A stretch of DNA of 64,000 nt from Gammaproteobacteria bacterium (GTDB lineage Bacteria > Pseudomonadota > Gammaproteobacteria > Eutrophobiales > Eutrophobiaceae): assembly GCA_965116495.1 (NCBI GenBank), contig OZ220696.1, positions 2,176,001-2,240,000 of the forward strand, read 5' to 3'. Position numbers and translations under genes: made by a program. Below the pieces are notes generated by a model. That model searched no databases. It worked only from the letters and a program-made list of their open reading frames with translations, and was not told the origin of the DNA. Within the stretch, counting starts at the first letter, position 1. Every line of letters begins with the position of its first letter. Shown here piece after piece: positions 7,634-45,015 of the stretch.

Positions 7634-8032
7634 TCATAGACGCCCGGAAATTGTTGTGTTATCGGTTTTGAAACCGGGAGGCTGCTTGATTAGTGACTCG
7701 GCGGGGATGCCGAGTTGCTCGTGCAGGCGCCAAATCATTTTAAGTGTGAGTGAGCGTTTACGATTCAATATCTCATAAACACGATTTCTCCTGCCGATCA
7801 TCGGCTCAAGGTCTTTTGCCGTTAATCCCTTCTGTTCCATTTCAAACCTGATGGCGGCAACTGGGTCGGGTAAGTCAAGCGGATAATGCTTATGTTCATA
7901 CGCTTCGACCAGGGTCGCCAGTACATCCAGTTTTTCACCTTCAGGTGAATCCGGTTGCGCTGACATCAGCGTTTCTATCTGTTTCAGCGCCGCCCGATAG
8001 TCGGCATCTGTTTTGATGGGTTTGACTTCCAT
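7634..8032 (-). CDS. higA: HigA antitoxin (HTH)
   Basis: PIKTDADYRAAL..LVEAYE..PDPVAAIRFEMEQKGL..KRSLTLKMI. Confidence 0.9.
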   Translation of the reverse strand: MEVKPIKTDADYRAALKQIETLMSAQPDSPEGEKLDVLATLVEAYEHKHYPLDLPDPVAAIRFEMEQKGLTAKDLEPMIGRRNRVYEILNRKRSLTLKMIWRLHEQLGIPAESLIKQPPGFKTDNTTISGRL

Positions 8033-8050
8033 CAGTTGTTCCTCCAGGGA

Positions 8051-8353
8051 CTAAATGATTTGTGCATCAATCCGGTTATATTGGGCATGTGTCCCGATAA
8101 ACCGTATGTAAACCACTCGGTAAGCATAATTAACCCAGACAACCAGCCGATACTTGTTGCCGGCTATATTAAACACCACTCGTCCATCCTTGAGGATACT
8201 GGCATTGCTGAAATCCTGTTTGACATCAGCCGGCGAAGTCCAATCAGCTCGTAACGCTCGTCGATACCAGGCCCTGACCGGCTCTGCCGCATCTTTGTAT
8301 GCAGGGTTTTGCTCCCAGAGCCGTTCGAGCATAGAGAGCGCTATGATCCTCAT
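8051..8353 (-). CDS. higB: HigB toxin
   Basis: ASILKDGRVVFNIAGNKYRLVV..FIGTHAQY; toxin-first order with higA. Confidence 0.9.
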   Translation of the reverse strand: MRIIALSMLERLWEQNPAYKDAAEPVRAWYRRALRADWTSPADVKQDFSNASILKDGRVVFNIAGNKYRLVVWVNYAYRVVYIRFIGTHAQYNRIDAQII

Positions 8354-8450: not shown

Positions 8451-8523
8451 CGAACAAGCGGTAAAACGTGTCCTGGCCTGGCAACTTTCTGAAACAATGA
8501 AACAGCAAGGCATCAGAAAAGTG

Positions 8524-8548
8524 GAAATGGCCGGGGACGCAATAGTAA
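8524..8548 (-). repeat. Degenerate copy of tRNA-Phe 3' end (att-like site, most distal)
   Basis: atggccggggacgcaatagta versus tRNA atggccagggacagaatcgaa; shares the aatagta variant with the other copies. Confidence 0.55.
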
Positions 8549-8584
8549 AAACTCTGATGCCACAGTGCTCCGACCCCGGAACTT

Positions 8585-9763
8585 TTAAGTGATGTGCTCG
8601 CTCATCCATTCCTTCAGCAAAGACACTGCCTGCGCCTGGTGTGCGGGCTGCTCGCGGTAGTAGTGAGTCGCGCCGTCAATCCGTTCAAAGCGCTTGTTTG
8701 GACTCCCCAGGAGTTCAAAAATTTTTCGCGGGTGTGATGCCGGCACTGCATCGTCGGCCCCATTTTCAATGACCAGGGCCGGCACGCTGATCGCAGGTGC
8801 ATTGTCTGCGCTGCGTGCGCGGCTTTTATCAAAAGACCATTGCGACATCCACGACCGCAAGGTGGTAAAGCGGGCAAGACCCACGGGTCCCGAGTTGACT
8901 GCGCGCGGGTCACCGAGGTAGCAGTGATTGGGTTCGCGCTGGTTCGGATCGACTGCAGGGTCAATCCAGCGCGGGTCGCACATCGTCCGGTGAACAATGA
9001 ATGGGCGTTCAATCGCGCCGTCGTCAGCATAGGCAAGACGATCAAGCTGTTGTTTCACGCAGGTCGTGATGCGCCGGTTGCGCGCGATCTGCGCTGATCT
9101 GAATCTGTCGAGAAACTCCGCATTGAAAGGTGGCGTGTGAGTTGTTTCCTGTGCGTAAATATCAAGCTCGGGATCGCGCGTATCCGGGTCGGATTCAATC
9201 ATGACCGAAGGGTCGAGCCACTCGGTCAACGTTTCCGCGCGGCTGAGGTGCGCGGCGATACTGAGTATCCCGTCGGCCGCCGGCAGGCCGGCTGAAGACA
9301 GATCGACAGGGTCACCCGCAGGCGTGGCGGTGACGCTGGGCGTTTCGGCCTGTGCCTGGTAGTAGATAGATAAAGAGCCGCCGCCGCTCCAACCGGCGAG
9401 TATCACGTTCTCGTAGTTCAGTTCGTCGCGTGCGAAGGTGATATGCGCGCCCAGGTCGAGCAACACCTTCTCGATTATTAGCGGCGTGTCGTTACGCAGG
9501 TAGCGGCTGTTGCAACACATGACGTGTACGCCGGCTTCAGCGAGTGCCCTGGGTAAGGGCAGGAGAGACAGCGACGACGACGGATGCATGAACAGCAACA
9601 CCGATTTGGCGGGCGCAGCGCTACGCCGCAACAGTTGACCCTCGAGGAATATGCGGCCGGCTTGACCAACGAAGCCGTAAACTTCCGTGAACAGACTCTG
9701 CTCGTTGTATGAAATCGTATAGCCGTCGCGGGCGAACGGTTCGCGCAGTACTTCTATTTGCAT
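8585..9763 (-). CDS. Alpha/beta hydrolase
   Basis: GWSGG nucleophile elbow, ADDAVP Asp, ATHYY His. Confidence 0.85.
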   Translation of the reverse strand: MQIEVLREPFARDGYTISYNEQSLFTEVYGFVGQAGRIFLEGQLLRRSAAPAKSVLLFMHPSSSLSLLPLPRALAEAGVHVMCCNSRYLRNDTPLIIEKVLLDLGAHITFARDELNYENVILAGWSGGGSLSIYYQAQAETPSVTATPAGDPVDLSSAGLPAADGILSIAAHLSRAETLTEWLDPSVMIESDPDTRDPELDIYAQETTHTPPFNAEFLDRFRSAQIARNRRITTCVKQQLDRLAYADDGAIERPFIVHRTMCDPRWIDPAVDPNQREPNHCYLGDPRAVNSGPVGLARFTTLRSWMSQWSFDKSRARSADNAPAISVPALVIENGADDAVPASHPRKIFELLGSPNKRFERIDGATHYYREQPAHQAQAVSLLKEWMSEHIT

Positions 9764-9773
9764 GGACGCTTCG

Positions 9774-10274
9774 CTAAGCGGATTTAGTGCCGGCTTTGCG
9801 TGCGTTCCACTTGTCCATTTCCACTACCGCGTCCTGTGCCATCTGCGACCACATCGCCTTGGTGTCGGTGCGAACGGAAACTTCGAGGCGATGGCCGTTC
9901 GGATCGTAGAAGTACCAACTGTCGCACATGCCATGTTCCACCGGTCCCAGTACGTCGGTACCCATATCACGCAATCGCTGTGCCAGGGACGCCGCTTCCT
10001 CGTGGGAGTCGATCTCGAGAGCCAGGTGCTGCGCCCAATCCTGTTCAACTCGCGCCGCCGGACCGGCGTCTTCGAGGATGTCAAAGAAGGCGATGAAACT
10101 GCCGTCTTTCATCTCGAAGAAAATGTGGTTGTGCGGCTCGTTGCGTTGCAGTGACGGCACGTGTTCCTGGACCAGCGCGGCGGCGAACTTCAGGCCCAGG
10201 CCATCGACATAAAATTGCCGCGTCGCTTCAGCGTCGAGACAGCGATAGGCAACATGGTGAAGTTTCTTGAGCAT
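9774..10274 (-). CDS. VOC/glyoxalase family protein
   Basis: LHHVAYRC, QHLAL, SWYFYDPNGHRLE. Confidence 0.9.
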   Translation of the reverse strand: MLKKLHHVAYRCLDAEATRQFYVDGLGLKFAAALVQEHVPSLQRNEPHNHIFFEMKDGSFIAFFDILEDAGPAARVEQDWAQHLALEIDSHEEAASLAQRLRDMGTDVLGPVEHGMCDSWYFYDPNGHRLEVSVRTDTKAMWSQMAQDAVVEMDKWNARKAGTKSA

Positions 10275-10367
10275 CCGCTTGCCTCGTCTCCAGGGTAGCT
10301 TGATAATAATGTATAAAGAGATAAATTATACAAAAATATTATCGACGGTGTGAGGATTTGACGGCAC

Positions 10368-11612
10368 ATGACCATGGCACAAACTAAAAGCCCATCAACG
10401 GCGCGCTTTGCGCGCGACCTCGGCGAGGTACGCAAGGAAGTTCTGGCCAGGGTAGAAGCGATACTGCCGGCGCTGGCGGACGCGGCCGCAGACGCGGAAG
10501 CAGAACGTGATCTGACGCCGGAATCCTTCGCTGCCCTGGTCGAATCCGGTGCGCTGCGGCTGTTCGCGCCGCAACGAGCGGGCGGATACGAGGCCGGTTA
10601 CCGGACTTACGTTGACTCGACCGTCCTGTTGGCGCGCGCATGCGGTTCATCGGCGTGGTTTTCCTTCATTCTCAATCATGGGGACTGGCAGACCGGGCAG
10701 ATGAGCGCTGCGGTTCAGGAGCGTGTGTGGGCCGGCAATTCGGCTTCGGCGAAGGTTGCGGTGCCGCTCGCGCCGATGCCTGGCTGGCGCGCCGAGCGAC
10801 ATGACGGCGGCACAACGGTCTCGGGCGACTGGCCGTACTCGTCAGGTAGCTCGCACGTCAGTTGGGCGCTGATCGGTTTTCCGCTGCTGGACGATGACGG
10901 GTCGCAGACAGACAACATGATCGGGCTGGTCAAGACCAGCGGGATCCCGGTCCGCGACACCTGGCATGTTGCCGGTATGGCTGCGACCGGCAGCAACACC
11001 TTTGAAATACAGGATGTTTTTATACCGGACGAGGAAACGACCACCTTGTCCGCAATGATGAGCCACCGGTTTGAAACGCCCCACACCGCTGAAGCGCAAT
11101 ACCAGATGGATTCCGTCGTGGTCTTTCACATCGCGACCCTGGTGCCAGTGGTCAGCCTCGCGAAAGCCGCTCTGGATTTGACCATGGAACGCATCACGAC
11201 GCGTCCTAAACCGATGACTTATACGTTTTATACGGATACCACCAAGTCGGCCGCGACCCAGTTTGCGATGGCGCGCGCAACCTGGTTGATCGAGACGGCA
11301 TTGGAGCAGACGCGCGCCACCGCCGACGCCATCGATGCGCAAGCACTGACGGCGCGTCCGTTCCCGGCGATCGACCGCGCAACGTTTGCCATGCGTTCGG
11401 CACAGGCACATCGCATGTGCCGCGAAGGCGTGGACTTATTACTTGATGTACAGGGCGCAGGCTCTTTCGCTCTTAATAATCCGCTGCAGAGGATCTGGCG
11501 CGACATGCATGTAGCCAGCCGCCACGGTATGTCGGTGCCTGGCATGAAGCAGGAGATGTACGGCCGCGCGTTGCTGGGCGCCGATGAACAGCAGATGACG
11601 CCGATTCGCTAA
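10368..11612 (+). CDS. Acyl-CoA-dehydrogenase-fold flavin-dependent monooxygenase (HsaA/NcnH-like)
   Basis: LARACGSSAW, GDWPYSSGS, DTWHVAGMAATGSN, NPLQRIWRDMHVASRH. Confidence 0.85.
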   Translation: MTMAQTKSPSTARFARDLGEVRKEVLARVEAILPALADAAADAEAERDLTPESFAALVESGALRLFAPQRAGGYEAGYRTYVDSTVLLARACGSSAWFSFILNHGDWQTGQMSAAVQERVWAGNSASAKVAVPLAPMPGWRAERHDGGTTVSGDWPYSSGSSHVSWALIGFPLLDDDGSQTDNMIGLVKTSGIPVRDTWHVAGMAATGSNTFEIQDVFIPDEETTTLSAMMSHRFETPHTAEAQYQMDSVVVFHIATLVPVVSLAKAALDLTMERITTRPKPMTYTFYTDTTKSAATQFAMARATWLIETALEQTRATADAIDAQALTARPFPAIDRATFAMRSAQAHRMCREGVDLLLDVQGAGSFALNNPLQRIWRDMHVASRHGMSVPGMKQEMYGRALLGADEQQMTPIR

Positions 11613-11972
11613 TCGCGATTTAACGCAGGTATTCACCCAGCTTAAACAGGTCTACGAGTAAAGCAACCTGCCCCGGGACTTGCTGTAACTACACAGATTT
11701 CTCCGTCTCACGCTGGTTGAACAGAAAAAAATTTCGGTCAGGAGACGCACAAACTACCCACTGTCCAGTTATAATGATAACTGCATCAGGTCATCCACTT
11801 GGACGCGACTTTAAGATAGCCCTGGGATACAGCTTGAGCGTGTTTCAATATGTGGTAATACAACTCAGGAATATTATCTTTCCTGCCGGTACTTTAATTG
11901 ATTAAAGGAGGCAATGGCTCGACGCCTATTGTCGGTATTTCAATTATTGTTGTTTTGTCTATAGGGGTTGAT

Positions 11973-12266
11973 ATGAAATATCTCATTCTACTGATGCTTC
12001 TGTATATTCCACTCGTTCATTCGGCTGATTATCGCAAAGAAATTATGGATTATATGATTAATCCTTGCTTCAAACAAACCATGAAAAGAGAAGGACTGGA
12101 TCCAAATAATCCACAATTATTGAATTCATATATTGACACATATGGGAAGCGTATTATGGATAATGTTGAGATATTACAACTAACTTTAGAACAATATCAT
12201 CCGTCTTATCCAGAACGCCAAGAATTATATCAAATTGGATTACGCAGTTGTCTAGATGGGTTTTAA
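11973..12266 (+). CDS. Hypothetical exported protein
   Basis: MKYLILLMLLYIPLVHSA signal-peptide-like N-terminus after a GGGG RBS-like site; AT-rich. Confidence 0.55.
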   Translation: MKYLILLMLLYIPLVHSADYRKEIMDYMINPCFKQTMKREGLDPNNPQLLNSYIDTYGKRIMDNVEILQLTLEQYHPSYPERQELYQIGLRSCLDGF

Positions 12267-12389
12267 TGGAAGTATGGCCGAAAGAAAACCCGGCTAAACT
12301 ACACCTGACTGATATGGCCCACTACCTTGGCTAGAGGTTTGAATCTGACGAGAAGGATGTTCGCGTGATTGACAACAAAAGAACCACAA

Positions 12390-12956
12390 ATGAATAGAAA
12401 TATCATAGGAATAATTATAGCGCTGGTTGCTATATACATCTTTGCTACACCTTATATCACTGTGTACCGGATGGATATCGCCAACCAGAATCATGATGGA
12501 GATGCGCTATCCAAGTATATTGATTTCCCAGCATTGCGGCAAAGCATGAAAGACCAGATAAACGCGCAGCTACCAATCCTAATGACAAAAGAGGGGTTGG
12601 ACGATAATCCATTCACTCCTTTAGGAATCCTGTTGGCGAGCACGTTGATAGAAAAAATAATTGACACACGCATTACTTCGTCCGGAATTGTGGAGTCAAT
12701 GAAAAATATCCCTGACACATATGATGGTATTCTAAATGTTGACATTGACCTTTCAGATGCGTCTGCAGATGTTTTAAAGTCGTACGAATCTTTCAGCAAA
12801 TTTTCTGTAACCAGAACCGTTAAGGATACTGAATTGAACGATGATATAGTAATAAAATATTATTTAAGCCGTAGAGGATTAAACTGGAAATTAACTGAGA
12901 TTATACTCCCCCTGGCAGAATGGCAATCAGCGCTTGAACCAGTTCTCAGATTTTAA
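12390..12956 (+). CDS. DUF2939 domain protein
   Basis: N-terminal TM helix, ATPYITVY..DGDALSKYIDFPALRQSMKDQ..RRGLNWKLTEIILP. Confidence 0.75.
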   Translation: MNRNIIGIIIALVAIYIFATPYITVYRMDIANQNHDGDALSKYIDFPALRQSMKDQINAQLPILMTKEGLDDNPFTPLGILLASTLIEKIIDTRITSSGIVESMKNIPDTYDGILNVDIDLSDASADVLKSYESFSKFSVTRTVKDTELNDDIVIKYYLSRRGLNWKLTEIILPLAEWQSALEPVLRF

Positions 12957-13035
12957 AGCAGAAAAAAAGAAAAGAAGATATTGAACATTTAAATGTTGTT
13001 TCTGGTCTCTATAATAAGAAAAAAGGGTAACCATC

Positions 13036-13278
13036 ATGAATCGAATATTTCTGATTATTGGGCTTTTATTGACTCCACCACATATATTGGCCGATCCGGA
13101 TGACAAGGCCGATATTCCTGTTGACCTGATTGTCAAAGACCGTTCACAATTGACAATAACCAAAATGCGGGGTGGCTCTGATACCAGAAAAACCTACAGA
13201 GCTTGTGACCGGGATAAATGTTCGTATTTCACTGTACGGACGTACAGTGACGGAACCCAAGCCGTATATCCTCATTAA
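13036..13278 (+). CDS. Hypothetical small exported protein
   Basis: Signal-peptide-like start, Cys pair; no recognised domain. Confidence 0.4.
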   Translation: MNRIFLIIGLLLTPPHILADPDDKADIPVDLIVKDRSQLTITKMRGGSDTRKTYRACDRDKCSYFTVRTYSDGTQAVYPH

Positions 13279-13349
13279 TTTTACATTTATTTCTAAACCG
13301 CACTCCAATCCATTCATTGGCGCCGATTACACACACATCAGGAAATAGC

Positions 13350-13751
13350 ATGTTTAATCGTATTAAGTACGAAGATTTAAATTCTCGACAGAAGAAGAAA
13401 GACTACAATTTTCAAAAACTCGCATCCAGACTCGTCGATTACGGTTTCAACTGTTTACGACTCAGCGAGCAGGGAGCAGACTTTATCGCTCATCATATAG
13501 ATGGTAGTACTTTTATCAGAGGCACACTAACAGGGCGGTTAAGTATTGATAAGAAATACAACGGGAAAGATATCTATATTGCCTTTAATGAGAACAGCCG
13601 ATGGTATATTTATCCCCATGATAAATTACAGGATGAACTGCTTGATATGGGCTACATGTCCGGGACTGTATCGTGGGATATCCGTGGTATATACAACTGG
13701 CCAGGGCTTACTAAAAGACTGGTAGAACACATGGAGCAGTATGCAATTTAG
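13350..13751 (+). CDS. Restriction-endonuclease-fold-like conserved hypothetical protein
   Basis: YNFQKLASRLVDYGFNCLRL..GADFIAHH..GRLSIDKKY, PD-(D/E)XK-like layout with an atypical second motif. Confidence 0.5.
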   Translation: MFNRIKYEDLNSRQKKKDYNFQKLASRLVDYGFNCLRLSEQGADFIAHHIDGSTFIRGTLTGRLSIDKKYNGKDIYIAFNENSRWYIYPHDKLQDELLDMGYMSGTVSWDIRGIYNWPGLTKRLVEHMEQYAI

Positions 13752-13773
13752 AAGGTATCCGGGTTGGCGTTGA

Positions 13774-13800
13774 AAATACGGCCAGGGACGTAATAGTACT
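13774..13800 (-). repeat. Degenerate copy of tRNA-Phe 3' end (att-like site)
   Basis: aaatacggccagggacgtaatagtact, nearly identical to the 21143 copy. Confidence 0.75.
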
Positions 13801-14055
13801 GCTTTTATAACTTAGGAAGCTCTGTTTTTGTCAGAGGTTCCCTTGTTGACTTATCGAATTCCTTATTATCGTTAACCTGCTTACCCAACAATTTAACCAA
13901 GAAAATATCCAGATGTATTGCTGGTCTCATGCCGCACTTGTACGGCGGGTTGCTCGCCAGAGTTATTGTTTGGGCAGAGTCTCACTATTACTTGATTTTT
14001 ACGGTCATATCAGCTATTTTTACATTATACTGCGTCATAAATATTGAGGTTCTAT

Positions 14056-14406
14056 ATGAAATTTCAGGAATTCGTTGAAGATCAGGTTTTCTCACCCACG
14101 CTCGTCGCCACCGCGTTGCGTACAACCAGGAGTGAGATTGCCCATACACTGGGGCTGGGTCAGGACGCGTTCTCGCGCAGTTCCCGCATCCGGGCGAGGA
14201 AGACACAGACACGGTTGCGTCAGATGCTCGAAATTCTCCATCGGGTATCGACCCATACAGGTTCCGACCTGGCGGCCTATGCCTGGTTTCGCGCAGAGCC
14301 ATTATCCGGCTTTGGTGGTATGACCCCCGACCAACTGGTGCGGGAAGGCAAGGCTGATGATGTCCACGCTCATCTCGACCGAATCATGGCCGGCGGTTAC
14401 GCTTGA
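14056..14406 (+). CDS. Xre/MbcA/ParS-type antitoxin
   Basis: HTH plus AYAWFRAEPLSGFGGMTPDQLVREG toxin-binding domain. Confidence 0.88.
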   Translation: MKFQEFVEDQVFSPTLVATALRTTRSEIAHTLGLGQDAFSRSSRIRARKTQTRLRQMLEILHRVSTHTGSDLAAYAWFRAEPLSGFGGMTPDQLVREGKADDVHAHLDRIMAGGYA

Positions 14407-14421
14407 TACGTCGTCCTGCTG

Positions 14422-14934
14422 ATGCGTTTTTGCGGCCTCGTCTATCGCGCGCATAACCCGCGGTGGACCTGGGACGCGACTTCCGGAGAAGGGGCGCGCC
14501 GCCATGGGGGGCGCTTTAACCGAATAGGGGTCCCGGCACTTTATACGTCCCTGTCACCTGTCACAGCCATGAGAGAGGCCAGCCAGATAGGGCGGCCATT
14601 GCAGCCGATCACGCTGTGCGCCTACGAGGTCGATGCAGAGCCTGTATTCGATGTGTTGGACCCGTCAGAGCGGGAGGCACTGGGAGTAAAGACAGATGAC
14701 TTTTGTTGCCAATACTGGGAACGGGAAATGCTGGCGGGTATCTTACCGGCGTCGCAGCTTCTCGCCGACCGGCTGATTGCAGCCGGCTATATGGGTATGC
14801 GTGTTCAAAGTTTCGTACCGGGAGCCGGAACGGATGATCTCAACCTGGTATTCTGGCGCTGGGGCGACCACGGACCAGGCAAAGTGGTCCTCATAGATGA
14901 CGAGGAGCGTCTCCCAAAAAATACAGATGGGTGA
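14422..14934 (+). CDS. RES domain toxin (NAD+ phosphorylase family)
   Basis: YRAH..SGEGARRHGGRFN..ALYTS..AMRE..VQS..NLVFW. Confidence 0.9.
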   Translation: MRFCGLVYRAHNPRWTWDATSGEGARRHGGRFNRIGVPALYTSLSPVTAMREASQIGRPLQPITLCAYEVDAEPVFDVLDPSEREALGVKTDDFCCQYWEREMLAGILPASQLLADRLIAAGYMGMRVQSFVPGAGTDDLNLVFWRWGDHGPGKVVLIDDEERLPKNTDG

Positions 14935-14950
14935 CTCGGAGTTTCGCACT

Positions 14951-15173
14951 GCTTCCCGTTCATCCCGTCTCAACCTTCAATATCGGGTAATTTACGGAAT
15001 CGAAGGCGAGAACCTTATGGTCCAGGTGGTGGAAGTGACTGCCCATGATTACAGGAAAAAGGGCGCTCCGCTGCCATCCCGCAGCGCTGGTATTTCCTAA
15101 TTGGGATATAGAATCGGAAATTGCCGCATAGCCGCTTTATCCTAATTCGCGGTACAGCATCGGGTCAAACAGC
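14951..15173 (+). pseudogene. Internally deleted copy of the 21391-21935 TA locus
   Basis: 14951-15060 matches 21560-21669 and 15061-15173 matches 21865-21977 with few mismatches. Confidence 0.9.
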
Positions 15174-15218
15174 GCTGCCTGACGGAACCTCCTGATAATG
15201 GCGCAGTACAGGGCCAGA

Positions 15219-15245
15219 AAGTATGGCCAGGGGCAGAATAGTACC
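15219..15245 (-). repeat. Degenerate copy of tRNA-Phe 3' end (att-like site)
   Basis: aagtatggccaggggcagaatagtacc versus tRNA aagtatggccagggacagaatcgaact. Confidence 0.8.
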
Positions 15246-15259
15246 GAGCATAAATAGGG

Positions 15260-16489
15260 TTATACCAGGTAGCGCAGAAACTCCTCCGCACTGATTATCA
15301 GCACTTTATAGTTTCCCAACTTAACGATATCAAATACATTCGGTTTTTTCACAACCTGAAACGCGTACGGGCATTTGAGTTGCGGCAAAAACACTTTCCA
15401 GTTTTGCGATAATTTTTCCTGGTTCAGTTTTACTTCCACCGGAAACCAGGGCTTGTTGTTCCTTAACAGGAGAAAATCGATTTCCTTCTTTTCCTTGTTC
15501 CTGAGATAGCGCAGTTCATAGCTGCCAACACCTGTATCAGTCAGGTAATCACAATATTTCAACAGGTGCAATGCAACCAGGTTTTCAAAGCGGGATGCCT
15601 CATTTTCCACCTCGCTCCAATCCCAGAGGTACAGTTTTCCCTCTTTTTTTATGGAGCGGGACAGGGATTTTGAATAGGGCTTGACCTCAAAGAAATAATA
15701 CAATTCGTTCAGATACTGCAACCAGCGCCTGACCGTGGTATAGGCTACCTCAAGGTCTTCACTCAATGAGGTTATGCTCAACGGGTTAGCTGCTCGCTCC
15801 GGCAACAGACTAGCCAGCATTTCCACCTGGCTTAACTCCGGCAGCCGGCTCAGGTCGCGCAAGTCCTCCCTGATTATTCTCTCAACCCGGTTACGCCGCC
15901 ACAGGTTCAGGGTTCTATCCGTTCCGGCCAACAAAGGCTCTGGAAACGGTCCAAACCGAAGCAACAAAGGCAGGTAATCCTTGGCTCTCCCGCTGATTTT
16001 AATGGAACGTTCGAACACTGCATGCACCAGGTCAGGAGCGGCAATCCCGGGCTTCCTGCGAAGCATTTCATGCATTGAGAATGGATGCAGGCGCAGGTGA
16101 TAATATCTCCCCAGCAAGCTGTCACTACCCTTCCGGTAGATATTCAGGCGCGCGCTGCCGGTCACCAGTATATCGCAGGGCATGTCCAGGGTATCGTAAA
16201 CGCCTTTGAGGTTTTTCTTCCAGAATTTTGCCTTGTGCAGTTCATCGAGAACGATTAACGGTCTGGCATCATCCTGCACGGCAGGCGGGATTATGCCGCT
16301 CGGATCTTTGGTCCAAAGACGGCGGAACTTAATCTCGTCCCAGTTGTAATAAGCGCCGGTTTTGTACTGTTTTAAAATGCGCTTGGCCAATGTGGTCTTG
16401 CCACATTGCCTGGCGCCGGACATGAAGGCCATTTTCCCGGTTTGAAAACAGACCTCATTGAGTATATTTTCCAGGTAACGCTCTTTCAT
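15260..16489 (-). CDS. AAA_14 ATPase with DUF4143 / C-terminal nuclease-like domain
   Basis: GARQCGKTT, LDELHK, VTGSA, FENLVA, KEIDF..VEVK. Confidence 0.9.
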   Translation of the reverse strand: MKERYLENILNEVCFQTGKMAFMSGARQCGKTTLAKRILKQYKTGAYYNWDEIKFRRLWTKDPSGIIPPAVQDDARPLIVLDELHKAKFWKKNLKGVYDTLDMPCDILVTGSARLNIYRKGSDSLLGRYYHLRLHPFSMHEMLRRKPGIAAPDLVHAVFERSIKISGRAKDYLPLLLRFGPFPEPLLAGTDRTLNLWRRNRVERIIREDLRDLSRLPELSQVEMLASLLPERAANPLSITSLSEDLEVAYTTVRRWLQYLNELYYFFEVKPYSKSLSRSIKKEGKLYLWDWSEVENEASRFENLVALHLLKYCDYLTDTGVGSYELRYLRNKEKKEIDFLLLRNNKPWFPVEVKLNQEKLSQNWKVFLPQLKCPYAFQVVKKPNVFDIVKLGNYKVLIISAEEFLRYLV

Positions 16490-16601
16490 TATATGACTAT
16501 TTTAGCGACTGACGCCAAAATGGTCAACTCCTGCCGGGGCATCTGGCCATTTTATTGATTGCCGAGAAAATAGTCGTCTGTATTCCTTTGTCACCGATGC
16601 C

Positions 16602-16770
16602 TTGGAAACCGGGGATGCTGTGTACATAGCCAAGGCGATGGGGGTGGCAACTCGCGCCAAGGGCATGACGGAAATTGCCCGGGAGATAGGACTGTCACGC
16701 GAACAGCTTTACCGCTCTTTCAGTGAGAAAGGGAATCCAAGACTGAAAACCATGCTTGCCCTTAACATAT
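16602..16770 (+). pseudogene. Truncated HI1420-type addiction-module antidote
   Basis: ETGDAVYIAKAMGVATRAKGMTEIAREIGLSREQLYRSFSEKGNPRLKT; both termini missing, no toxin partner. Confidence 0.7.
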
Positions 16771-16852
16771 CCTTCAAACTGGTGATGCCACGACTTCTGA
16801 CGAATCTTTACAAATCCATTAGCTTGAAGAATTTTCAAAAAGTCACGGTATT

Positions 16853-17182
16853 TCAAGCCTCACAATGAATCAGGAATCCGGCACAATCCCTGTCATTTCC
16901 CCTGTTTTTGAAGAGCGTTGTTATCAGCAATATCAGAATAAACTTCATGCGAAGATTGAAAGGGACTTTGCGCGTTAAAAACCGGCGCTGTTCCTCTTTC
17001 GGTAAATTCCTGACATAATCCAGATACATTGAGATAGCTTCATTCAGTTCCTTGTAAACTTCATCAAAGCTCCCTCCCTGAACTGCCAAATCAAAATCCA
17101 GACAGAACGCTTCCCAATGTCCCAGTCTGCCTTCTGCATAACACCAGATGGCTTTGTTCATGTTAATCCCGGATTCTGTCAT
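16853..17182 (-). CDS. HicB-like (RNase H-fold) antitoxin-type protein, orphan
   Basis: WEAFCLDFDLAVQGGSFDEVYKELNEAISMYL. Confidence 0.65.
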   Translation of the reverse strand: MTESGINMNKAIWCYAEGRLGHWEAFCLDFDLAVQGGSFDEVYKELNEAISMYLDYVRNLPKEEQRRFLTRKVPFNLRMKFILILLITTLFKNRGNDRDCAGFLIHCEA

Positions 17183-17448
17183 TTCATCACCTCCCCGTTC
17201 ACCAGGCCAGCTAGCCACACATCTTGTGCGTTATATTATCAGCGTAATGGCTAAATGGGCATATGTGATGAATAATTTATTGACAAACCCCATTACAATC
17301 TGGCGTGAGCGGCGCCATACTCCCGGACTTATCCATTTTATTGACAAACCCTCTTACGACTTGGTGTGAGGGGAGGCTGTTTCAGGGCTTAGGACACGCT
17401 TTTGACGACGAAAATCATCGATCCGTATATTGCGCCTTCTTCATGCAG

Positions 17449-17745
17449 TTAATTTGCAGCCTGTACGTGTAATTTTACTCCCAGGGCCTTGATGATCTTT
17501 ATCACTGTCGTAAAGGACGGATTGCCCTCCGATGACAACGCCTTGTACAACCCCTGCCGTGTCATCCCGGCGCTTTCTGCCAACCTGCCCATGCCTTTTG
17601 CGCGGGCAATATTATTCAACGCGGTACGGATCAGGGCGCCATCACCGCTGTCTTCTTCCATACACGCGTCAAGATACAAGGCCATATCTTCTTCGGTATC
17701 AAGATAATCGATCACATCCCATCGGGTCAGTTTTACCTCAGCCAT
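17449..17745 (-). CDS. Addiction-module antidote (HI1420 family)
   Basis: WDVIDYLDTEEDMALYL..NIARAKGM..GLYKALSSEGNPSF. Confidence 0.9.
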   Translation of the reverse strand: MAEVKLTRWDVIDYLDTEEDMALYLDACMEEDSGDGALIRTALNNIARAKGMGRLAESAGMTRQGLYKALSSEGNPSFTTVIKIIKALGVKLHVQAAN

Positions 17746-18035
17746 GTTTGTACCTCCTCGGCTGTTTCAAGCGCGTGTTCAATGTCTTTGTTTTGTGTTT
17801 TTTTTGTGCCGCCACCCAACAGGACGATAATTTCAGTCCCTGATCGGATAAAATATATACGGTATCCGGGACCATAGTGGATGCGCATTTCAGCAACACC
17901 TTTACCTACCGCTCGGCAATCACCCAGGTTACCTTGTTGGACATTTTCCAGACGCGCCGCGATTTTCGCTTTTGCTCGCCTGTCCCGCAATCCTCTGAGC
18001 CATTTGCCAAAGACTTCCGTTGTCTGAATCAACAT
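17733..18035 (-). CDS. RelE/ParE-type addiction-module killer (HI1419 family)
   Basis: GNLGDCRAVGKGVAEMRIHYGPGYRIYF..LLGGGTKKTQNKDI; start placed at internal ATG 18035. Confidence 0.9.
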   Translation of the reverse strand: MLIQTTEVFGKWLRGLRDRRAKAKIAARLENVQQGNLGDCRAVGKGVAEMRIHYGPGYRIYFIRSGTEIIVLLGGGTKKTQNKDIEHALETAEEVQTWLR

Positions 18036-18218
18036 GGCGCTATAGTAAACTATAGTTGACACTAACGCCAATGCTTTTCTGGGGGCAGTGTGGGGTCAGA
18101 CCAGACCTGATTAGATAGTAATGTCGTCGTACAAGCATGAGAATCTTAAAACCCCGATTTTGATTGCAAAATGGGGAGTCTAAGGGGCAATATCAGGCGT
18201 GGGCGGTCATGGGGAAGT

Positions 18219-19097
18219 TTAGGAGTAAAATTCAGCGGGGTTTAACAACCTGCCCCAGCAGGGACATGGCGGATTCAGATGCCGACCAGTGTTTACCATA
18301 ATTTTGCCAATAGTCATACGCCTGGTCGGGGCCTCCAAGACTTGCTGTGACAGTCTGTGACCCCATAACCGGCGCAGCCGATCTTCTTTTACAACGACGT
18401 TCTGCATTACGTCTTCTATTGTGCGATGCCGGAATGCCAGCTTGGATTCCAGTTCCGGCATTATGTCTGCAAGTTCAGAGTCATGGTGATTCAGCAAATA
18501 CCACAGATCGTACAGGTCTCTGGGTTCATTGCGGGCACGGTCACTCAGCGCCACAATTTTCTCGACCATTATTTCATTGAGGCTATAGGTCAAAATGGTA
18601 GCCCCCTCCGGCAGATCATTGAACATATCGTATTGACGGAGAATTGGTCTTTCCTGTAATGGGAAACAGATTTTTTCGGTTAATGTGAAATCGACTTTCA
18701 CACTGTTCTTTGCGGGCAAGGGGCCTTGGTACTGCAGATAAAAGGTATAGTTGTTCCTGCCTGGTCGGCTGTCTTTTTGATCAAATTCAATATGCACGCC
18801 ACTGGCTGCTCTTACAGCATTATGAATATCCCCGAACCCTGTCATGATATCTTCAATGCCGAGGGGTTCAATCAGGGTAAAATCCATGTCCTCTGAAAAC
18901 CGGTAACCATCAAACCAGCAACGCCTTAACGCCGTCCCGCCCTTGAATGCCAGTTTTTCACGCAATGGGTGATTGCTCAAGCCGGACAGAAACCATGCCA
19001 GCACATAGTCTCGTTCAATGACGGCCTCAGGCAATCGCCTTTTGTTGTCTGTTACCAACGAATTTGTGATGAGCGAAATATTTCGTTGCGGAATCAT
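18219..19097 (-). CDS. AbiEii/AbiGii nucleotidyltransferase toxin (type IV TA)
   Basis: IERDY, FKGGTAL, RFSEDMDF, EKIVAL..PRDLYD; ATG overlaps the antitoxin stop at 19097. Confidence 0.9.
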   Translation of the reverse strand: MIPQRNISLITNSLVTDNKRRLPEAVIERDYVLAWFLSGLSNHPLREKLAFKGGTALRRCWFDGYRFSEDMDFTLIEPLGIEDIMTGFGDIHNAVRAASGVHIEFDQKDSRPGRNNYTFYLQYQGPLPAKNSVKVDFTLTEKICFPLQERPILRQYDMFNDLPEGATILTYSLNEIMVEKIVALSDRARNEPRDLYDLWYLLNHHDSELADIMPELESKLAFRHRTIEDVMQNVVVKEDRLRRLWGHRLSQQVLEAPTRRMTIGKIMVNTGRHLNPPCPCWGRLLNPAEFYS

Positions 19098-19933
19098 CAG
19101 CCAAACCTCACGGCATCTATCTCTTCGGGCGGCACGTTCAGTTGCAGGCGCCAACGAGCCAGGTGTTTTCCTTCGGCCGGCAGCAACGGGTCAAGGCGCT
19201 GGTACGTGTTCGTCAACAGGCTGCGCAGGTACTCAAGCGTACTGGCATTCGCCATCTCATAACGCTCAAGCAGGTAGCCGAGTCGACGAACGACGACGCC
19301 CGCGCCCAGACGGGAGGCATACTCCACCAGACGCTCCACATTCAATGCTTCACGCTGCATCCACATGCCTTTGCCGACTTCCGTGATGCCGCCCACATGG
19401 GCCGGGTGCCGTAAACCGTCAATAATGGTCCGCTCCATATCACTGACAATCACATGGCGATGCTTGTCCACCCAGTGCTTCGTTGTACCGAAAAACTGCT
19501 CGTCGGTGATATGAATGAATTTGAACGGGAACCCGCCAACAGTCTGGGGGCGCAGCCGTTTCGTACATGACACATGCAAGGTCAGGACCGGTTGCGTCAC
19601 CATGCGATGGATCTCAAGCGCGGAGCCGTGTGAGATGAAGTAACTGTTTGGCTGCACTATTTCCTGTGCGATGATATAGGGGTTGTCAACATGCTCACTG
19701 GCCCGACCCAGTTGAAACGGGACCAGATTGTACAGCCCGGGTTTCAGACGCGTCACCAGGCCGCGCTGGACCGCCTTGTGCACCAGGTTGCTGGCCGCCT
19801 GTGGAGACAAACCGGTGATGGATATCACATCATCAAGCGCAAACGTTGATCTGTCCCGCTCATTCAACTCAGTGATCATCTGAGCAGCCCGAGGTCCAAG
19901 TGTCTTGAATTTTGAATTATATCGAGAGTTCAT
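19097..19933 (-). CDS. AbiEi antitoxin (type IV TA)
   Basis: N-terminal wHTH (RLKPGLY), YFISHGSAL, SDMERTIIDGL..GGITE..RRLGYLL. Confidence 0.88.
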   Translation of the reverse strand: MNSRYNSKFKTLGPRAAQMITELNERDRSTFALDDVISITGLSPQAASNLVHKAVQRGLVTRLKPGLYNLVPFQLGRASEHVDNPYIIAQEIVQPNSYFISHGSALEIHRMVTQPVLTLHVSCTKRLRPQTVGGFPFKFIHITDEQFFGTTKHWVDKHRHVIVSDMERTIIDGLRHPAHVGGITEVGKGMWMQREALNVERLVEYASRLGAGVVVRRLGYLLERYEMANASTLEYLRSLLTNTYQRLDPLLPAEGKHLARWRLQLNVPPEEIDAVRFG

Positions 19934-20336
19934 ATTCTATCCCAAAGAAGATATATTATGCGTATATAATATAATAATAATTATATAAATTGTCAATAAT
20001 ATTACCTTTTAGATAATATATGCACCATATATTATAACTTATACCTGTCGTGTGCGTGTGCCAGGCGGTTGAAGCGCTGACACGGTATTGAAAAAAGCAG
20101 GCCCGGCCAATTTTTCGAGGACTTCCTGAAAGAACAAAGATTAATGCCGTTTACTATTTCATTGTCCCAACATCTGTCCCAACATTTTTTCCGATATGAA
20201 ACTGCATCTCTGCGGAGGCGATATGTAATCTTCGTGAGGATTTGTAACTCATTGTATTAATGGTAATTATCGAATTTTTCGATGTTTCCTGATACTACTC
20301 AGACCCTGGCTTGATCCCAATCAGGAATCATCTATA

Positions 20337-20672
20337 ATGACTCCTGTGCGGGTAATCGCAAAAAGGTCATTAAGGAAGGTCTGGGAGTCGGTGCCTGAAT
20401 ATGCTGATGCGAAGGAGCCATTGGAGGCCTGGTATTTTGAAGTAATCAGGGCCTCATGGACTACTCCCCAGGAGTTGAAAGCACAGTTTGGATCGGCCAG
20501 TATCCTCAAAAACAGCCGGGTTGTTTTCAATATAGCGGGGAATAAGTACCGGCTCGTTGTTGCCGTCGATTACCGGAGACAGGCCTGTTTTGTGAAGTTT
20601 GTCGGCATTCACAAGCAATATGACACTATTGATGCGGAGACGTATGATGGATATTCAGCCCATAAAAAATGA
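20337..20672 (+). CDS. higB: HigB toxin
   Basis: ASILKNSRVVFNIAGNKYRLVV; paralog of 8051-8353. Confidence 0.9.
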   Translation: MTPVRVIAKRSLRKVWESVPEYADAKEPLEAWYFEVIRASWTTPQELKAQFGSASILKNSRVVFNIAGNKYRLVVAVDYRRQACFVKFVGIHKQYDTIDAETYDGYSAHKK

Positions 20673-21003
20673 ACGGGATTACGACCAGGCCCTTGCAGCA
20701 GTCGAAAGGCTGTGGGGAGCCGAAGAAGGGACGGAAGCGGGTGACAAACTGGATATCCTGTTAATCCTCGTTGAAGATTACGAAGACAAGCACCACCGGA
20801 TTTCACCACCGGACCCCGTGGATGCCATCAAATTCAGGATGGAACAAATGAACCTGACGAGAAAGGACCTGGAGCCCTGTATCGGCAACCGGGGCAGGGT
20901 TTCGGACATCCTGAACCGGCGCCGTGAACTCTCGTTGGCCATGATAAGAAACCTTCATTCCAGGCTGTCCATTCCGTTGGAGAGTCTTATCGGCGAGGCC
21001 TGA
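20644..21003 (+). CDS. higA: HigA antitoxin
   Basis: PIKNERDYDQAL..PDPVDAIKFRMEQ..RRELSLAMIRNL. Confidence 0.9.
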   Translation: MMDIQPIKNERDYDQALAAVERLWGAEEGTEAGDKLDILLILVEDYEDKHHRISPPDPVDAIKFRMEQMNLTRKDLEPCIGNRGRVSDILNRRRELSLAMIRNLHSRLSIPLESLIGEA

Positions 21004-21124
21004 AAGAAGGACCCGTACACCCGCCCTTCGACATTTCACCCGGCCCGCAGCTTGTCCCATCCATAAGGTTGTGCTGATTGACGATGAGGATCGTCTATCA
21101 AAGAATACACAGCAGTATACACGG

Positions 21125-21169
21125 CCGGTTCGATTCAGGCGAAAGTATGGCCAGGGACGTAATAGTACT
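21125..21169 (-). repeat. Copy of tRNA-Phe 3' end plus downstream flank (att-like site)
   Basis: ccggttcgattcaggcgaaagtatggccagggac versus 23028 ccggttctattcagacgataagtatggccagggac; 16-bp exact core at 21143-21158. Confidence 0.88.
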
Positions 21170-21390
21170 AAACTGATAAGATACTGTTATAAAAGCTTTT
21201 TTATTGGTTTAATAAATTCCATTGTAACATTTATTACAACATTTTGTCTTGTAAGGATTTGATGCCCTGCAGGTGGATCAGGGTACGGGTAGGAGGTCAT
21301 CCTCCACACGAAGCATTTTGATCTGCAATTTTATCGATGTGCCACCAAAATGTTTGACATATCTTATATGGTATATATACTCTTTTTAGT

Positions 21391-21672
21391 ATGTGGGCCG
21401 TTTATGAACATCGCCGGGTTGACAAACAGCTCACTAAGGCTCCGATTGAAGTACAGAAACGTTATGAGAAATGGAAGGATATTGTCAGTATTTCGGGTCC
21501 TGCCGGATTGAAGCTGATACGCGGTTTTCATGATGAGGCGCTTCGTGGTGAGTGGCAAGGCTTCCGTTCATCCCGCCTCAACCTACAATATCGGGTAATT
21601 TACGGAATCGAAGGTGAGAACCTTATGGTCCAGGTGGTGGAAGTGACTGCCCATGATTACAGGAAAAAATGA
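21391..21672 (+). CDS. RelE/HigB-like mRNA interferase toxin
   Basis: GFHDEALRGEWQGFRSSRLNLQYRVIY..AHDY; TTGACA..TATACT promoter-like sequence upstream. Confidence 0.85.
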   Translation: MWAVYEHRRVDKQLTKAPIEVQKRYEKWKDIVSISGPAGLKLIRGFHDEALRGEWQGFRSSRLNLQYRVIYGIEGENLMVQVVEVTAHDYRKK

Positions 21673-21935
21673 TTATGAAAGAATTTCGAGAAGCAAAATC
21701 CCGTATTCAAATTTCAACCGGGGAATCCGTCAGAATTATCAGGGAATTGCAGGAACTCAGCCAGAATGAACTTGCCGCTGTCACGGGTATCCCTCAATCG
21801 ACCATCTCCGCAATTGAGCGAGACAGGATCAACCTGGGAGTTGAACGGGCCAAGGTCCTTGCCAGGGCGCTCAGGTGCCATCCCGCAGCGCTGGTATTTC
21901 CTAATTGGGATATAGAATCGGAAATTGCCGCATAG
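21669..21935 (+). CDS. XRE-family HTH antitoxin
   Basis: RELQELSQNELAAVTGIPQSTISAIE; ATGA overlap with the toxin. Confidence 0.88.
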   Translation: MIMKEFREAKSRIQISTGESVRIIRELQELSQNELAAVTGIPQSTISAIERDRINLGVERAKVLARALRCHPAALVFPNWDIESEIAA

Positions 21936-22081
21936 TCGCTTTATCCTAATTCTCGATACAGCATCGGGTCAAACAGCATAGTCTTCCGATCAGGATTTGC
22001 GCAATTCGCCATAATTTTACCTCTAACCAGTATTCCGTTGTTTCTACCAGGAATGTTGCGCGGGATTTAAGGTCAAGCGCT

Positions 22082-22352
22082 TCAGAACGCCACCCTGTCC
22101 CCTCCCTTGAGCAGCAGAATCTCCCGCGCTTCATCTGGCGTCGCCACCTGCAGCCCCAGCCCTTCAATGATCTTGCGCACACGGGATACCTGATCGGCGT
22201 TGGATGTGGCCAGTTCACCCTTGCCCAGCCACAGCGAATCCTCAAGGCCGACCCGTACATGCCCACCCATGGAGGCGGCCATCGCGGCAACCCGCATCTG
22301 GTTGGCACCCGCGGCGAGCACCGACCAGCGGTAGTTATCGCCGAATAGGCGA
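22082..22352 (-). pseudogene. 3-keto-5-aminohexanoate cleavage enzyme (BKACE/DUF849) C-terminal fragment
   Basis: WSVLAAG..GGHVRVGLEDSL..ATSNADQV..ATPDEAREIL; N-terminal two-thirds absent. Confidence 0.85.
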
Positions 22353-22400
22353 ATTCTCCAGCTGGCCCGACGCACACATTAAATAATATTCATTGCATAG

Positions 22401-22419
22401 TGTAATCATATTGATTACA
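22401..22419. promoter_or_regulatory. Palindromic operator candidate for the downstream higBA
   Basis: TGTAATCA-tat-TGATTACA directly upstream of ATG 22428. Confidence 0.6.
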
Positions 22420-22427
22420 ATTCATGA

Positions 22428-22715
22428 ATGATAAGGAAGTTTCACCATAAGGGACTCAAGCGGTTTTTTGCCGACCCGCGGTACAGTGACAAGCGTGGAA
22501 TCAACCCGGACACGGCGTCACGCCTCATCGTCATTCTTGATGCGCTTGACGTTATTGAGAAAGCGGAAGAGATGGATATCTCAGGCCTGTATTTTCACAA
22601 ACTGAAAGGTGTGAGAAAAGGTGTATACAGCGTTCGCGTTACGGGCAACTGGCGAATCACCTGGAAGATGGCTGGTGAAGATGTTACCGATGTAAACCTG
22701 GAGGATTATCACTGA
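22428..22715 (+). CDS. higB: HigB-like plasmid-maintenance killer toxin
   Basis: MIRKFHHKGLKRFF..HKLKG..YSVRVTGNWRITW..VNLEDYH. Confidence 0.92.
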   Translation: MIRKFHHKGLKRFFADPRYSDKRGINPDTASRLIVILDALDVIEKAEEMDISGLYFHKLKGVRKGVYSVRVTGNWRITWKMAGEDVTDVNLEDYH

Positions 22716-23005
22716 TGAACCGTAAACCCTCACACCCGGGCGCGTTGATTAGAAACGTCATCCTGCCTGAGACCGGATTATCCGTCAGTTCACTCGCCGA
22801 GCGCTGTGGTGTTGCGCGCAATACCATGTCGAAGCTCATAAACGAGCGTGGTGACGTCACCGAGGACCTGGCCATTCGTCTGAGTTGTGTGCTGGGCAGC
22901 ACACCCGGGTTCTGGCTGGCCATGCAGTCGAAACTGAACTTATGGAAACTGGAGCGCAAGAACAGGCAAATCTACAGCCGTATGGAGCGCGTTCAGACAG
23001 GCTGA
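22715..23005 (+). CDS. higA: HigA (VapI-type) antidote
   Basis: PSHPGALI..SKLINER..LAIRL..TPGFWLAMQ. Confidence 0.92.
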   Translation: MNRKPSHPGALIRNVILPETGLSVSSLAERCGVARNTMSKLINERGDVTEDLAIRLSCVLGSTPGFWLAMQSKLNLWKLERKNRQIYSRMERVQTG

Positions 23006-23051
23006 ATAGCATAATCGCGCACAATGTCCGGTTCTATTCAGACGATAAGTA

Positions 23052-23124
23052 TGGCCAGGGACAGAATCGAACTGCCGACACAGGGATTTTCAGTCCCCTG
23101 CTCTACCTACTGAGCTACCTGGCC
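23052..23124 (-). tRNA. tRNA-Phe (GAA), CCA not encoded
   Basis: Reverse complement GGCCAGGTAGCTCAGTAGGTAGAGCAGGGGACTGAAAATCCCTGTGTCGGCAGTTCGATTCTGTCCCTGGCCA folds as a cloverleaf with anticodon GAA. Confidence 0.97.
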
Positions 23125-23248
23125 AAATCGATGCGGGCGCCACTGAAGAGGTGACGTCGAAGAAAGGGAGGTATTAAATCTTACTCCGGGTTTTCCGTCA
23201 AGCGGGAGATTTATTATGCGCAGTTTCCGCTTACAGAGTGTTTACAGG

Positions 23249-44763: not shown

Positions 44764-44770
44764 CAATAGC

Positions 44771-44943: not shown

Positions 44944-45015
44944 TTGAACTTGTAACCCTTGGTAGGCTCTCTCCTTTTTGGAGGAACTTGTCCTTGAAAA
45001 TCTTTTCGCTAGTAA

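What the first reader, a model, noticed from the sequence alone, without database searches (positions are those of the whole stretch)
8524..23124. Integrase-free tandem array delimited by repeated tRNA-Phe 3'-end (att-like) sites sharing a common variant
Seen: the tRNA 3' end (plus strand aagtatggccagggacagaatcgaact, 23047) recurs in the same orientation at 21143, 15219, 13774 and 8524, defining segments of about 1.9, 5.9, 1.4 and 5.2 kb. All four copies replace the T-loop-derived aatcgaa with aatagta, so they resemble each other more than independent decay would predict. The nearest copy also keeps about 20 bp of downstream flank. No recombinase gene is visible. Established: integrative elements duplicate tRNA 3' ends and can stack. 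Inference: repeated site-specific capture of small cargo units (mostly TA) by one recombinase family acting in trans, in an integron- or tycheposon-like manner.
Basis: partly seen in the sequence, partly recalled or inferred. Interest (0 to 1): 0.76.

Follow-up and report, generated by a model that had tools for sequence, protein, structure and literature searches.

The report
Toxin-antitoxin packets stacked behind tRNA-Phe
Behind the phenylalanine tRNA gene of this uncultured bacterium, toxin-antitoxin and other genes sit in packets separated by integrase docking scars; related species carry some of the same packets in other orders, and one carries an integrase-bearing mobile element at the same spot that likely leaves such scars and probably ferries the enzyme-less packets between species.

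Summary
Observation confirmed: four same-strand variant copies of the tRNA-Phe 3' end, the only exact motif matches in the 4.34-Mb genome; no recombinase found within about 30 kb. The copies look like distal attachment scars of tyrosine-integrase elements: 7-bp overlap, element-type left half-site (the shared 'variant'), and IHF-like and arm-type motifs at fixed spacing. Congener G022 has an integrase/relaxase element at the same tRNA ending in this same site, followed by ~1-kb integrase-free TA units. One HigBA unit runs site-to-site with different neighbours in two species. Cargo shared with G022 differs at 16 of 261 silent sites, against 55 of 149 in mutY, so units likely crossed species recently. 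Against a tidy cassette system: only one of the four sites here is intact, the long segments are deletion mosaics, 94 of 106 homology breakpoints are not at sites, and no excised circle was shown. Best reading: tandem accretion with CIME-like remnants carried by visiting elements; trans mobilisation is untested. The scan reported similar arrays at other tRNAs in at least 19 genomes. Unexplained: a ~25-nt unit start carrying an inverted T-loop copy.

The parts
23051..23125 (-). tRNA-Phe(gaa), single copy, no encoded CCA; integration target. Inferred 7-bp overlap at 23056-23062 (T-stem/acceptor junction)
   Evidence: overlap inferred from where copies stop varying
23028..23050 (-). Conserved unit start (trailer) with an inverted T-loop-like 9-mer
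22428..23005 (+). HigB/HigA pair (unit D start); follows a distal site in G022
   Evidence: Pfam PF05015, TIGR02607; 95% to G022 over 726 nt
22060..22352 (-). 3' fragment of a beta-keto acid cleavage enzyme gene, whole in G022 (about 725 nt missing here)
   Evidence: PF05853; alignment
21391..21935 (+). RelE-like toxin and HTH antitoxin (unit B)
   Evidence: TIGR02385, PF01381; 99% to G022
21125..21242 (-). Site 1, the only intact one: trailer 21125-21142, core 21143-21169, IHF-like motif 21176-21188, arm-type repeat 21223-21242
   Evidence: IHF and arm labels recalled
20337..21003 (+). HigB/HigA-like pair (unit C); a complete site-to-site 1057-bp unit in G016 and G022
   Evidence: PF09907
20167..20185 (-). 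Orphan arm-type repeat: unit C's distal site, whose IHF-like motif and core are missing here
18219..19933 (-). AbiEi/AbiEii type IV TA pair
   Evidence: PF13338, PF08843
17449..18071 (-). HI1419/HI1420-type addiction module
   Evidence: TIGR02683, TIGR02684
16602..17218 (.). Partial HI1420-type antitoxin (+) and a 121-aa ORF of unknown function (-)
   Evidence: PF21716; phrog_12841
15260..16489 (-). AAA_14/DUF4143 ATPase gene
   Evidence: 89% to G004
15219..15245 (-). Site 2: core only, one change in the overlap, no arm or IHF-like motif
14951..15173 (+). Internally deleted second copy of the RelE/HTH pair (matches 21560-21668 and 21864-21977)
   Evidence: 96% identity
14044..14934 (+). Xre/RES TA pair; also in G014 in front of a site
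   Evidence: PF09722, PF08808
13774..13902 (-). Site 3: core 13774-13800, IHF-like motif split by a 31-bp hairpin insertion (13811-13841), arm repeat about 13883-13902
   Evidence: alignment; hairpin also at genome 2,100,408
11898..13751 (+). Low-GC ORFs: DUF2939 and three with no family hit
8585..11612 (.). Catabolic genes: alpha/beta hydrolase, glyoxalase-like, acyl-CoA-dehydrogenase-like
8523..8549 (-). Site 4: relic core whose right side continues in the middle of an HTH antitoxin gene, probably a microhomology deletion
7634..8353 (-). HigB/HTH pair beyond the last site
   Evidence: PF09907, PF01381

Best explanation
The four repeats are likely distal attachment scars left by a family of tRNA-targeting tyrosine-integrase mobile elements that insert at the 3' end of tRNA-Phe, and the gene packets between them are integrase-free units that are probably ferried between species by such an element when it sits next to them. 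Steps: (1) an integrase/relaxase element inserts through the 7-bp overlap, restoring the tRNA and pushing older DNA outward behind a site made of its own left arm plus the previous tRNA flank (anatomy shown; activity inferred). (2) Deletions fuse the tRNA-proximal trailer to more distal cargo and a distal site, making ~1-kb units with one arm only (deletion junctions shown; order inferred). (3) A visiting element excises with a more distal site, transfers with the unit, integrates in a new host and later leaves alone (cis-mobilisation; inferred by analogy). (4) TA cargo likely favours retention (inferred). In this genome the stack is mostly decayed.
For: Anatomy: of 28 distal sites in 12 genomes, 17 have the arm repeat at -82/-83 and 19 the IHF-like motif at -30 from the overlap (alignment). 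G022 has a 399-aa integrase (PF13356+PF22022+PF00589), MobC and a relaxase starting 170 nt behind tRNA-Phe; the 12.3-kb element ends in a site with the same variant and is followed by units of 1059, 1098, 1057 and 2249 bp. The same arm repeat precedes its integrase start and those of sister integrases at other tRNAs. In 5 relatives (G002, G003, G004, G015, G022) a distal site carries the CCA. Of 1275 site pairs, 16 share a flank and 14 of these share one side only; 12 of 106 homology-block ends lie within 45 nt of a core in both genomes, about 0.1 expected if uniform, 5.2 as a loose upper bound. Unit C is site-to-site with different neighbours in G016 and G022. One contig of a related organism joins the tRNA core directly to unit C, skipping 1904 nt (run X10). 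Fourfold-degenerate differences to G022: mutY 55/149, yggX 11/33, six cargo genes 2/42, 4/51, 1/41, 1/41, 1/39, 7/47.
Against: No recombination was observed: no site-to-site joint among the 6 listed in the four best runs (contigs only). 94 of 106 block ends are not at cores in both genomes and the pairs are not independent. Only 1 of 20 fetched tRNA-Phe regions holds the integrase and 1 of 20 fetched integrase loci is at tRNA-Phe, so the helper rests on one genome. The units' start differs from the G022 element's start beyond the first few bases, so they are not simple truncations of that element. Some cargo is about as diverged as core genes (G001 higB2 8/38 vs mutY 32/169; G019 higB1 10/35 vs 30/171).
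Confidence: 0.66

Rival explanations
1. The ~1-kb units are true non-autonomous cassettes: a transiently present integrase excises them as circles in trans, and a one-armed site plus the conserved trailer is enough to re-integrate them at the tRNA.
For: Complete site-to-site units of 0.7-1.5 kb in 7 relatives plus the Xre/RES unit here. The same trailer starts about 10 different cargos and its exact form occurs only in tRNA-Phe arrays among 23 genus genomes. This genome's order (tRNA, D start, B end, site, C) is a circular permutation of G022's B-C-D opened at the C|D site.
Against: No circle shown; the 21169-to-20220 joints in X8 and X15 have only 34-41 letters on the short side, inside the start that units share. 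No arm repeat was found at unit starts, whereas the KplE1 model uses arm sites on attL (PMC2951348, passages). The SNP pattern in the shared B/D repeat is mixed, not a single crossover. Units encode no transfer function, so a carrier is still needed.
Confidence: 0.2
2. The sites are dead scars of old insertions; the units never moved by site-specific recombination, and sharing between species comes from homologous recombination or illegitimate deletion at a tolerant hotspot.
For: Three of four sites here are damaged; most breakpoints are elsewhere; microhomology deletions are visible; the tRNA and the sites themselves offer homology.
Against: Units change order and neighbours exactly at cores; arm and IHF-like spacing is kept in 17 and 19 of 28 sites; yggX and mutY next to the tRNA are as diverged as expected for different species while the cargo is not.
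Confidence: 0.11
3. An integron-type or serine-recombinase cassette array.
For: Small promoter-bearing TA units in a row; the T-loop and the inverted trailer copy form a rough dyad around the tRNA end.
Against: No IntI over cut-off, no PF00239 or PF07508 in a 99.5% complete genome; dyad spacing varies by 1-2 nt between copies; the site anatomy matches the tyrosine-integrase element of G022.
Confidence: 0.03

Closest known systems
Cis-mobilizable elements (CIMEs) and tandem accretion with IMEs (PMC5704250, passages read; Pavlovic 2004 and Bellanger 2011 seen only as reference entries there)
   Same: Integrase-less units bounded by att sites, stacked at a tRNA 3' end next to an integrative mobilizable element; G022 shows exactly an IME followed by such units.
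   Different: Gammaproteobacterial; units as small as one TA pair (~1 kb); unit starts lack the arm repeat of the IME's tRNA-side junction and carry a trailer of unknown origin; reordering between species is visible.
Tandem ssrA-specific genomic islands of Dehalococcoides (PMC3146451, passages read)
   Same: Many short target-end repeats downstream of one gene, a conserved non-target motif upstream of each repeat that disagrees with the gene, and 15 islands without integration module.
   Different: There a serine recombinase (DsiB) and 16 islands keep the module; here a tyrosine integrase with arm and IHF-like sites, found in 1 of 20 relatives, and TA rather than dehalogenase cargo.
KplE1/IntS-type tRNA-inserted elements (PMC2951348, passages read); 'P4-like' label recalled
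   Same: Integrase gene just behind the tRNA, facing away, arm-type sites over its promoter region, IHF use.
   Different: These are autonomous for excision; the window holds only their scars. No directionality factor was identified here.
Tycheposon islands of Prochlorococcus (10.1101/2020.12.28.424599, passages read)
   Same: New elements push older ones outward, leaving partial tRNAs scattered through an island.
   Different: Tycheposons carry their own integrase and often replication genes; the helper here has a relaxase, and the repeat is ~11 nt of identity rather than ~40.
Integrons (recalled)
   Same: Row of small units, many TA pairs.
   Different: No IntI over cut-off in the genome; sites are tRNA-derived cores with arms.

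Membership tests
CIME / tandem accretion | No integration or transfer genes in the unit | tested here: met
CIME / tandem accretion | Distal att site retained with element-type arm | tested here: met
   Intact at 21143 only; 17 of 28 distal sites across genomes have the arm repeat
CIME / tandem accretion | Proximal att site retained | tested here: inconclusive
   Core present, but no arm repeat found at unit starts, unlike the G022 element
CIME / tandem accretion | Derived by decay from an ICE/IME | tested here: inconclusive
   Unit ends in G007 and G015 are 76-80% like the G022 element's end; unit starts differ from it
CIME / tandem accretion | Mobilised in cis by an adjacent element | not testable with these tools
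   Arrangement present in G022; no assay
IME (G022 element, not in the window) | Own integrase plus relaxase and no mating apparatus | tested here: met
   PF00589/PF13356/PF22022, PF03432, PF05713; MbeA-like below cut-off; no mating-pore family among the 12 of its ORFs scanned
Integron | IntI integrase in the genome | tested here: not met
   0 of 9 matches over TIGR02249 cut-off
Integron | attC hairpins | not tested
   No attC model was run; no long inverted repeat at the sites among the 25 longest listed
Tycheposon | Element encodes a site-specific integrase | tested here: not met
Serine-integrase array | Serine recombinase in genome or beside relatives' arrays | tested here: not met
   for this genome; none among the 83 relatives' ORFs scanned

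The most novel reading that the evidence does not exclude
A genus-wide pool of ~1-kb, enzyme-less toxin-antitoxin cassettes is excised, reordered and re-integrated at tRNA-Phe by a visiting integrase acting in trans, with a conserved trailer holding an inverted T-loop copy standing in for the missing second arm: an integron-like cassette system built from lambda-type att sites.
Probability: 0.2. Interest if true: 0.72.

Novelty: new variant of a known kind. Interest (0 to 1): 0.42.

Why it matters
Integrase-less stacks behind tRNA genes are common but usually lack a named enzyme. Here a candidate cognate integrase, its intact element, intact and damaged sites and recently exchanged ~1-kb units are all available, so the open question of whether such units only ride along in cis or also move as their own circles can be tested with a few plasmids. 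It also offers a route by which TA modules spread between species without encoding any mobility gene. The general phenomenon (accretion, CIMEs) is known, which caps the interest.

Tried and rejected
Circles in public data: 8 of 23 listed runs were laid, all contigs. No site-to-site joint among the 6 joints listed for X1, X4, X5, X6. The 21169-to-20220 joints in the two viral metagenomes were rejected as circle evidence (34-41 letters, inside the shared start); 15 further joints were not shown. The X15 contig lacking the 31-bp insertion has depth 2 and is only a hint. Habitat: one unlaid run reads 'sponge metagenome'; not used as evidence. Wider spread of the variant site: genome-contig scan gave 8 stretches from 3 records, all matching relatives already held; metagenome scans gave 0 (trailer pattern) and 1 locus, identical to G016 and so not independent; the 4 viral matches have no tRNA, arm or integrase; no viral relative of the integrase was confirmed. 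Other genera of the family with extra tRNA-Phe fragments (6 genomes fetched) have longer exact tRNA copies, a different class. A second tRNA-Phe integrase: P0002 (89% identical) could not be placed on DNA. Trailer as terminator or as antisense competitor of the tRNA fold: no consistent hairpin in 13 folds, cloverleaf unchanged with the trailer. Trailer as tRNA-Cys relic: one mismatch over 16 nt to the antisense T-arm but flanks differ; left open. Williams 2002 (PMC100330) is not held; the junction subsite is cited from PMC4383910 (passages). PMC5812530 passages gave nothing useful. Literature searches for a description of this system (listings only unless named above) found none, but most subscription papers are not searched and no supplements were read. 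Look-alikes among earlier scan findings by place: none.
Full report
Observation. The window holds one tRNA, tRNA-Phe(gaa), minus strand 23051-23125, behind mutY and an Fe(II)-trafficking gene here called yggX (name recalled). Four same-strand copies of its 3' end lie at 21143, 15219, 13774 and about 8523, spaced 1904, 5924, 1445 and 5251 bp, all with the AATAGTA variant. No recombinase was found in or near the array; the genome's 9 tyrosine recombinase matches are elsewhere, no serine recombinase was found and no match passes the integron-integrase cut-off. Record titles of relatives read Gammaproteobacteria MAG. The variable region continues to conserved genes about 32.6 kb from the tRNA.

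Anatomy of the site. I fetched up to 20 kb behind tRNA-Phe in 20 relatives (19 of the 22 congeners plus one other genus) and extended three of them. A profile scan found distal copies in 10 of 20, and a degenerate one turned up in G004. Read in tRNA direction, a full site is: a tandem arm-like repeat, an IHF-like motif (both labels recalled), a left half-site with TACTATT or TTCTATT, a nearly invariant 7-mer GTCCCTG, and a right half. Of 28 distal sites in 12 genomes, 17 have the repeat at -82/-83 and 19 the IHF-like motif at -30 (one G004 position was entered slightly off and counts as a miss). The 7-mer lies at the T-stem/acceptor junction, one of the three crossover subsites named in PMC4383910 (passages). 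So the shared 'variant' is most simply the incoming element's own left half-site, present in every distal junction by construction. In 5 relatives a distal site carries the CCA end, as expected for a displaced original flank. The same anatomy stands at nine other places in this genome, several beside tails of tRNA-Lys, -Thr, -Glu and -Leu.

The enzyme. In G022 a 399-aa integrase with arm-binding, central and catalytic domains starts 170 nt behind tRNA-Phe, followed by MobC, a relaxase and restriction-type cargo; the 12.3-kb element ends in a site with the same variant. The arm repeat also precedes its start codon and those of sister integrases at other tRNAs, the layout described for IntS of KplE1 (PMC2951348, passages). 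It is rare: 1 of 20 regions; 15 of 126 family genomes have a homolog at E<=1e-60, and 1 of the 20 loci fetched is at tRNA-Phe. This genome has sisters at tRNA-Lys (61%) and at 488 kb (50%), whose cores differ; cross-talk is untested.

The units. Behind the G022 element come units of 1059 (BrnT/BrnA), 1098 (RelE/HTH, B), 1057 (HigBA, C) and 2249 bp (HigBA plus a catabolic gene, D). C is a complete site-to-site unit with other neighbours in G016; here it follows B but has lost its distal core, keeping the arm repeat at 20167-20185. D is distal in G022 but first behind the tRNA here. Of 1275 pairs among 51 sites (tRNAs included, one spurious hit, one pair within a genome), 16 share a 200-nt flank above 75% and 14 share one side only. 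Public contigs add a related organism with the tRNA joined directly to C at the core (X10, one contig, depth 48) and one with C before D as in G022 (X9). Silent-site differences to G022 are 55/149 in mutY and 11/33 in yggX but 16/261 over six cargo genes; to G016, 60/155 in mutY against 2/43 and 2/51 in unit C. These units therefore likely crossed species lines recently, with the boundary at the tRNA.

Against a tidy system. Only site 21143 is intact. 15219 is a bare core; 13774 has a 31-bp hairpin inserted in its IHF-like motif; 8523 is a core fused to the middle of an antitoxin gene. The first segment is a fusion of D's start and B's end; 14951-15173 is a deleted second copy of B. Among 106 ends of homology blocks between islands, 12 lie within 45 nt of a core in both genomes (about 0.1 expected if uniform, 5.2 as a loose upper bound) and 94 do not; the pairs are not independent. 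Some cargo is as diverged as core genes. No excision or circle was demonstrated (contigs drop rare variants).

Mechanism. Shown: site anatomy, a candidate cognate element, reordering at cores, low cargo divergence, deletion junctions. Inferred: elements insert and push older DNA outward; deletions fuse the tRNA-side trailer to distal cargo plus a distal site; a visiting element picks units up by excising with a more distal site and drops them in a new host. That needs only the unit's distal arm, which is what units keep, and matches the IME-CIME scenario in PMC5704250 (passages). I put this at 0.66. Independent circles moved in trans (0.2) would explain the circular-permutation relation between this genome and G022 and the trailer shared by about 10 cargos, but lack direct support. 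Dead scars (0.11) and an integron or serine system (0.03) fit worse.

Unexplained. The trailer after the core holds an inverted copy of the T-loop, varies between the same two letters as the left half-site, and in exact form occurs only in tRNA-Phe arrays among 23 genus genomes. It is absent from the G022 element's own start. It may be an extra integrase binding site, a relic of another site, or a tRNA-processing signal.

Comparison and verdict. It works like tandem accretion with CIMEs and closely resembles the ssrA islands of Dehalococcoides (PMC3146451, passages), where a conserved non-target motif also precedes each repeat and 15 islands lack an integration module. It is not an integron or tycheposon by the tests run. 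CIME membership is partly met: genes absent and distal site kept, proximal arm not found, mobilisation untested. The scan's own notes list 19 similar findings in at least 19 genomes (8 shown, unchecked), none by place for this locus. New variant of a known kind; interest 0.42, mainly because enzyme and substrates are both in hand for a direct test.

Noticed in passing
G000 genome 1,136,332-1,149,423: Sister element at tRNA-Lys(ctt): integrase 61% identical to the G022 one, MobC, a relaxase that aligns in two pieces, and a distal site with the same arm/IHF-like anatomy.
   Followed up: partly
G000 genome 1,217,042; 1,221,220; 993,354; 1,983,996; 1,012,383; 2,478,391; 2,481,209; 4,032,908: Further sites of the same anatomy for other targets; the tRNA-Leu(gag)-like and tRNA-Glu(ctc)-like ones lie about 0.87 and 1.1 Mb from their tRNAs, suggesting rearrangements.
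   Followed up: partly
G000 genome 1,008,439-1,011,900: Three adjacent tyrosine recombinase genes, a RIT-like trio (label recalled), next to a tRNA-Cys-like site and tRNA-Leu(taa).
   Followed up: no
G015 and G022; L075: A clade of integrases about 50% identical to the tRNA-Phe one occurs in four equal-scoring copies in G015 and four in G022; one G015 copy lies between mutY and yggX, and it is 93% identical to the G000 gene at 488 kb.
   Followed up: no
window 13811-13841 and genome 2,100,408-2,100,442: A ~31-35-bp hairpin present twice in the genome, here inside an IHF-like motif; possibly an insertion-sequence footprint.
   Followed up: partly
window about 16490-16560; G004, G016, G018, G022: A palindromic operator-like motif in front of the AAA_14/DUF4143 gene recurs next to or fused with att cores in several relatives.
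   Followed up: no
L011 (G001): The first 1.15 kb behind the tRNA is repeated at 99% behind the fourth site, and IS transposase genes are scattered through this array.
   Followed up: no
window 43001-50000: A 7-kb stretch at about 40% GC, outside the finding.
   Followed up: no
window 20136 and 8448, runs X1 and X4: A contig at about half the main depth joins these two places with 18 letters between; not at att cores, probably another strain or locus.
   Followed up: no
G104:C19:28440-28865: Three tRNA-Phe 3' ends at a 204-bp period in a small genome of the family.
   Followed up: no
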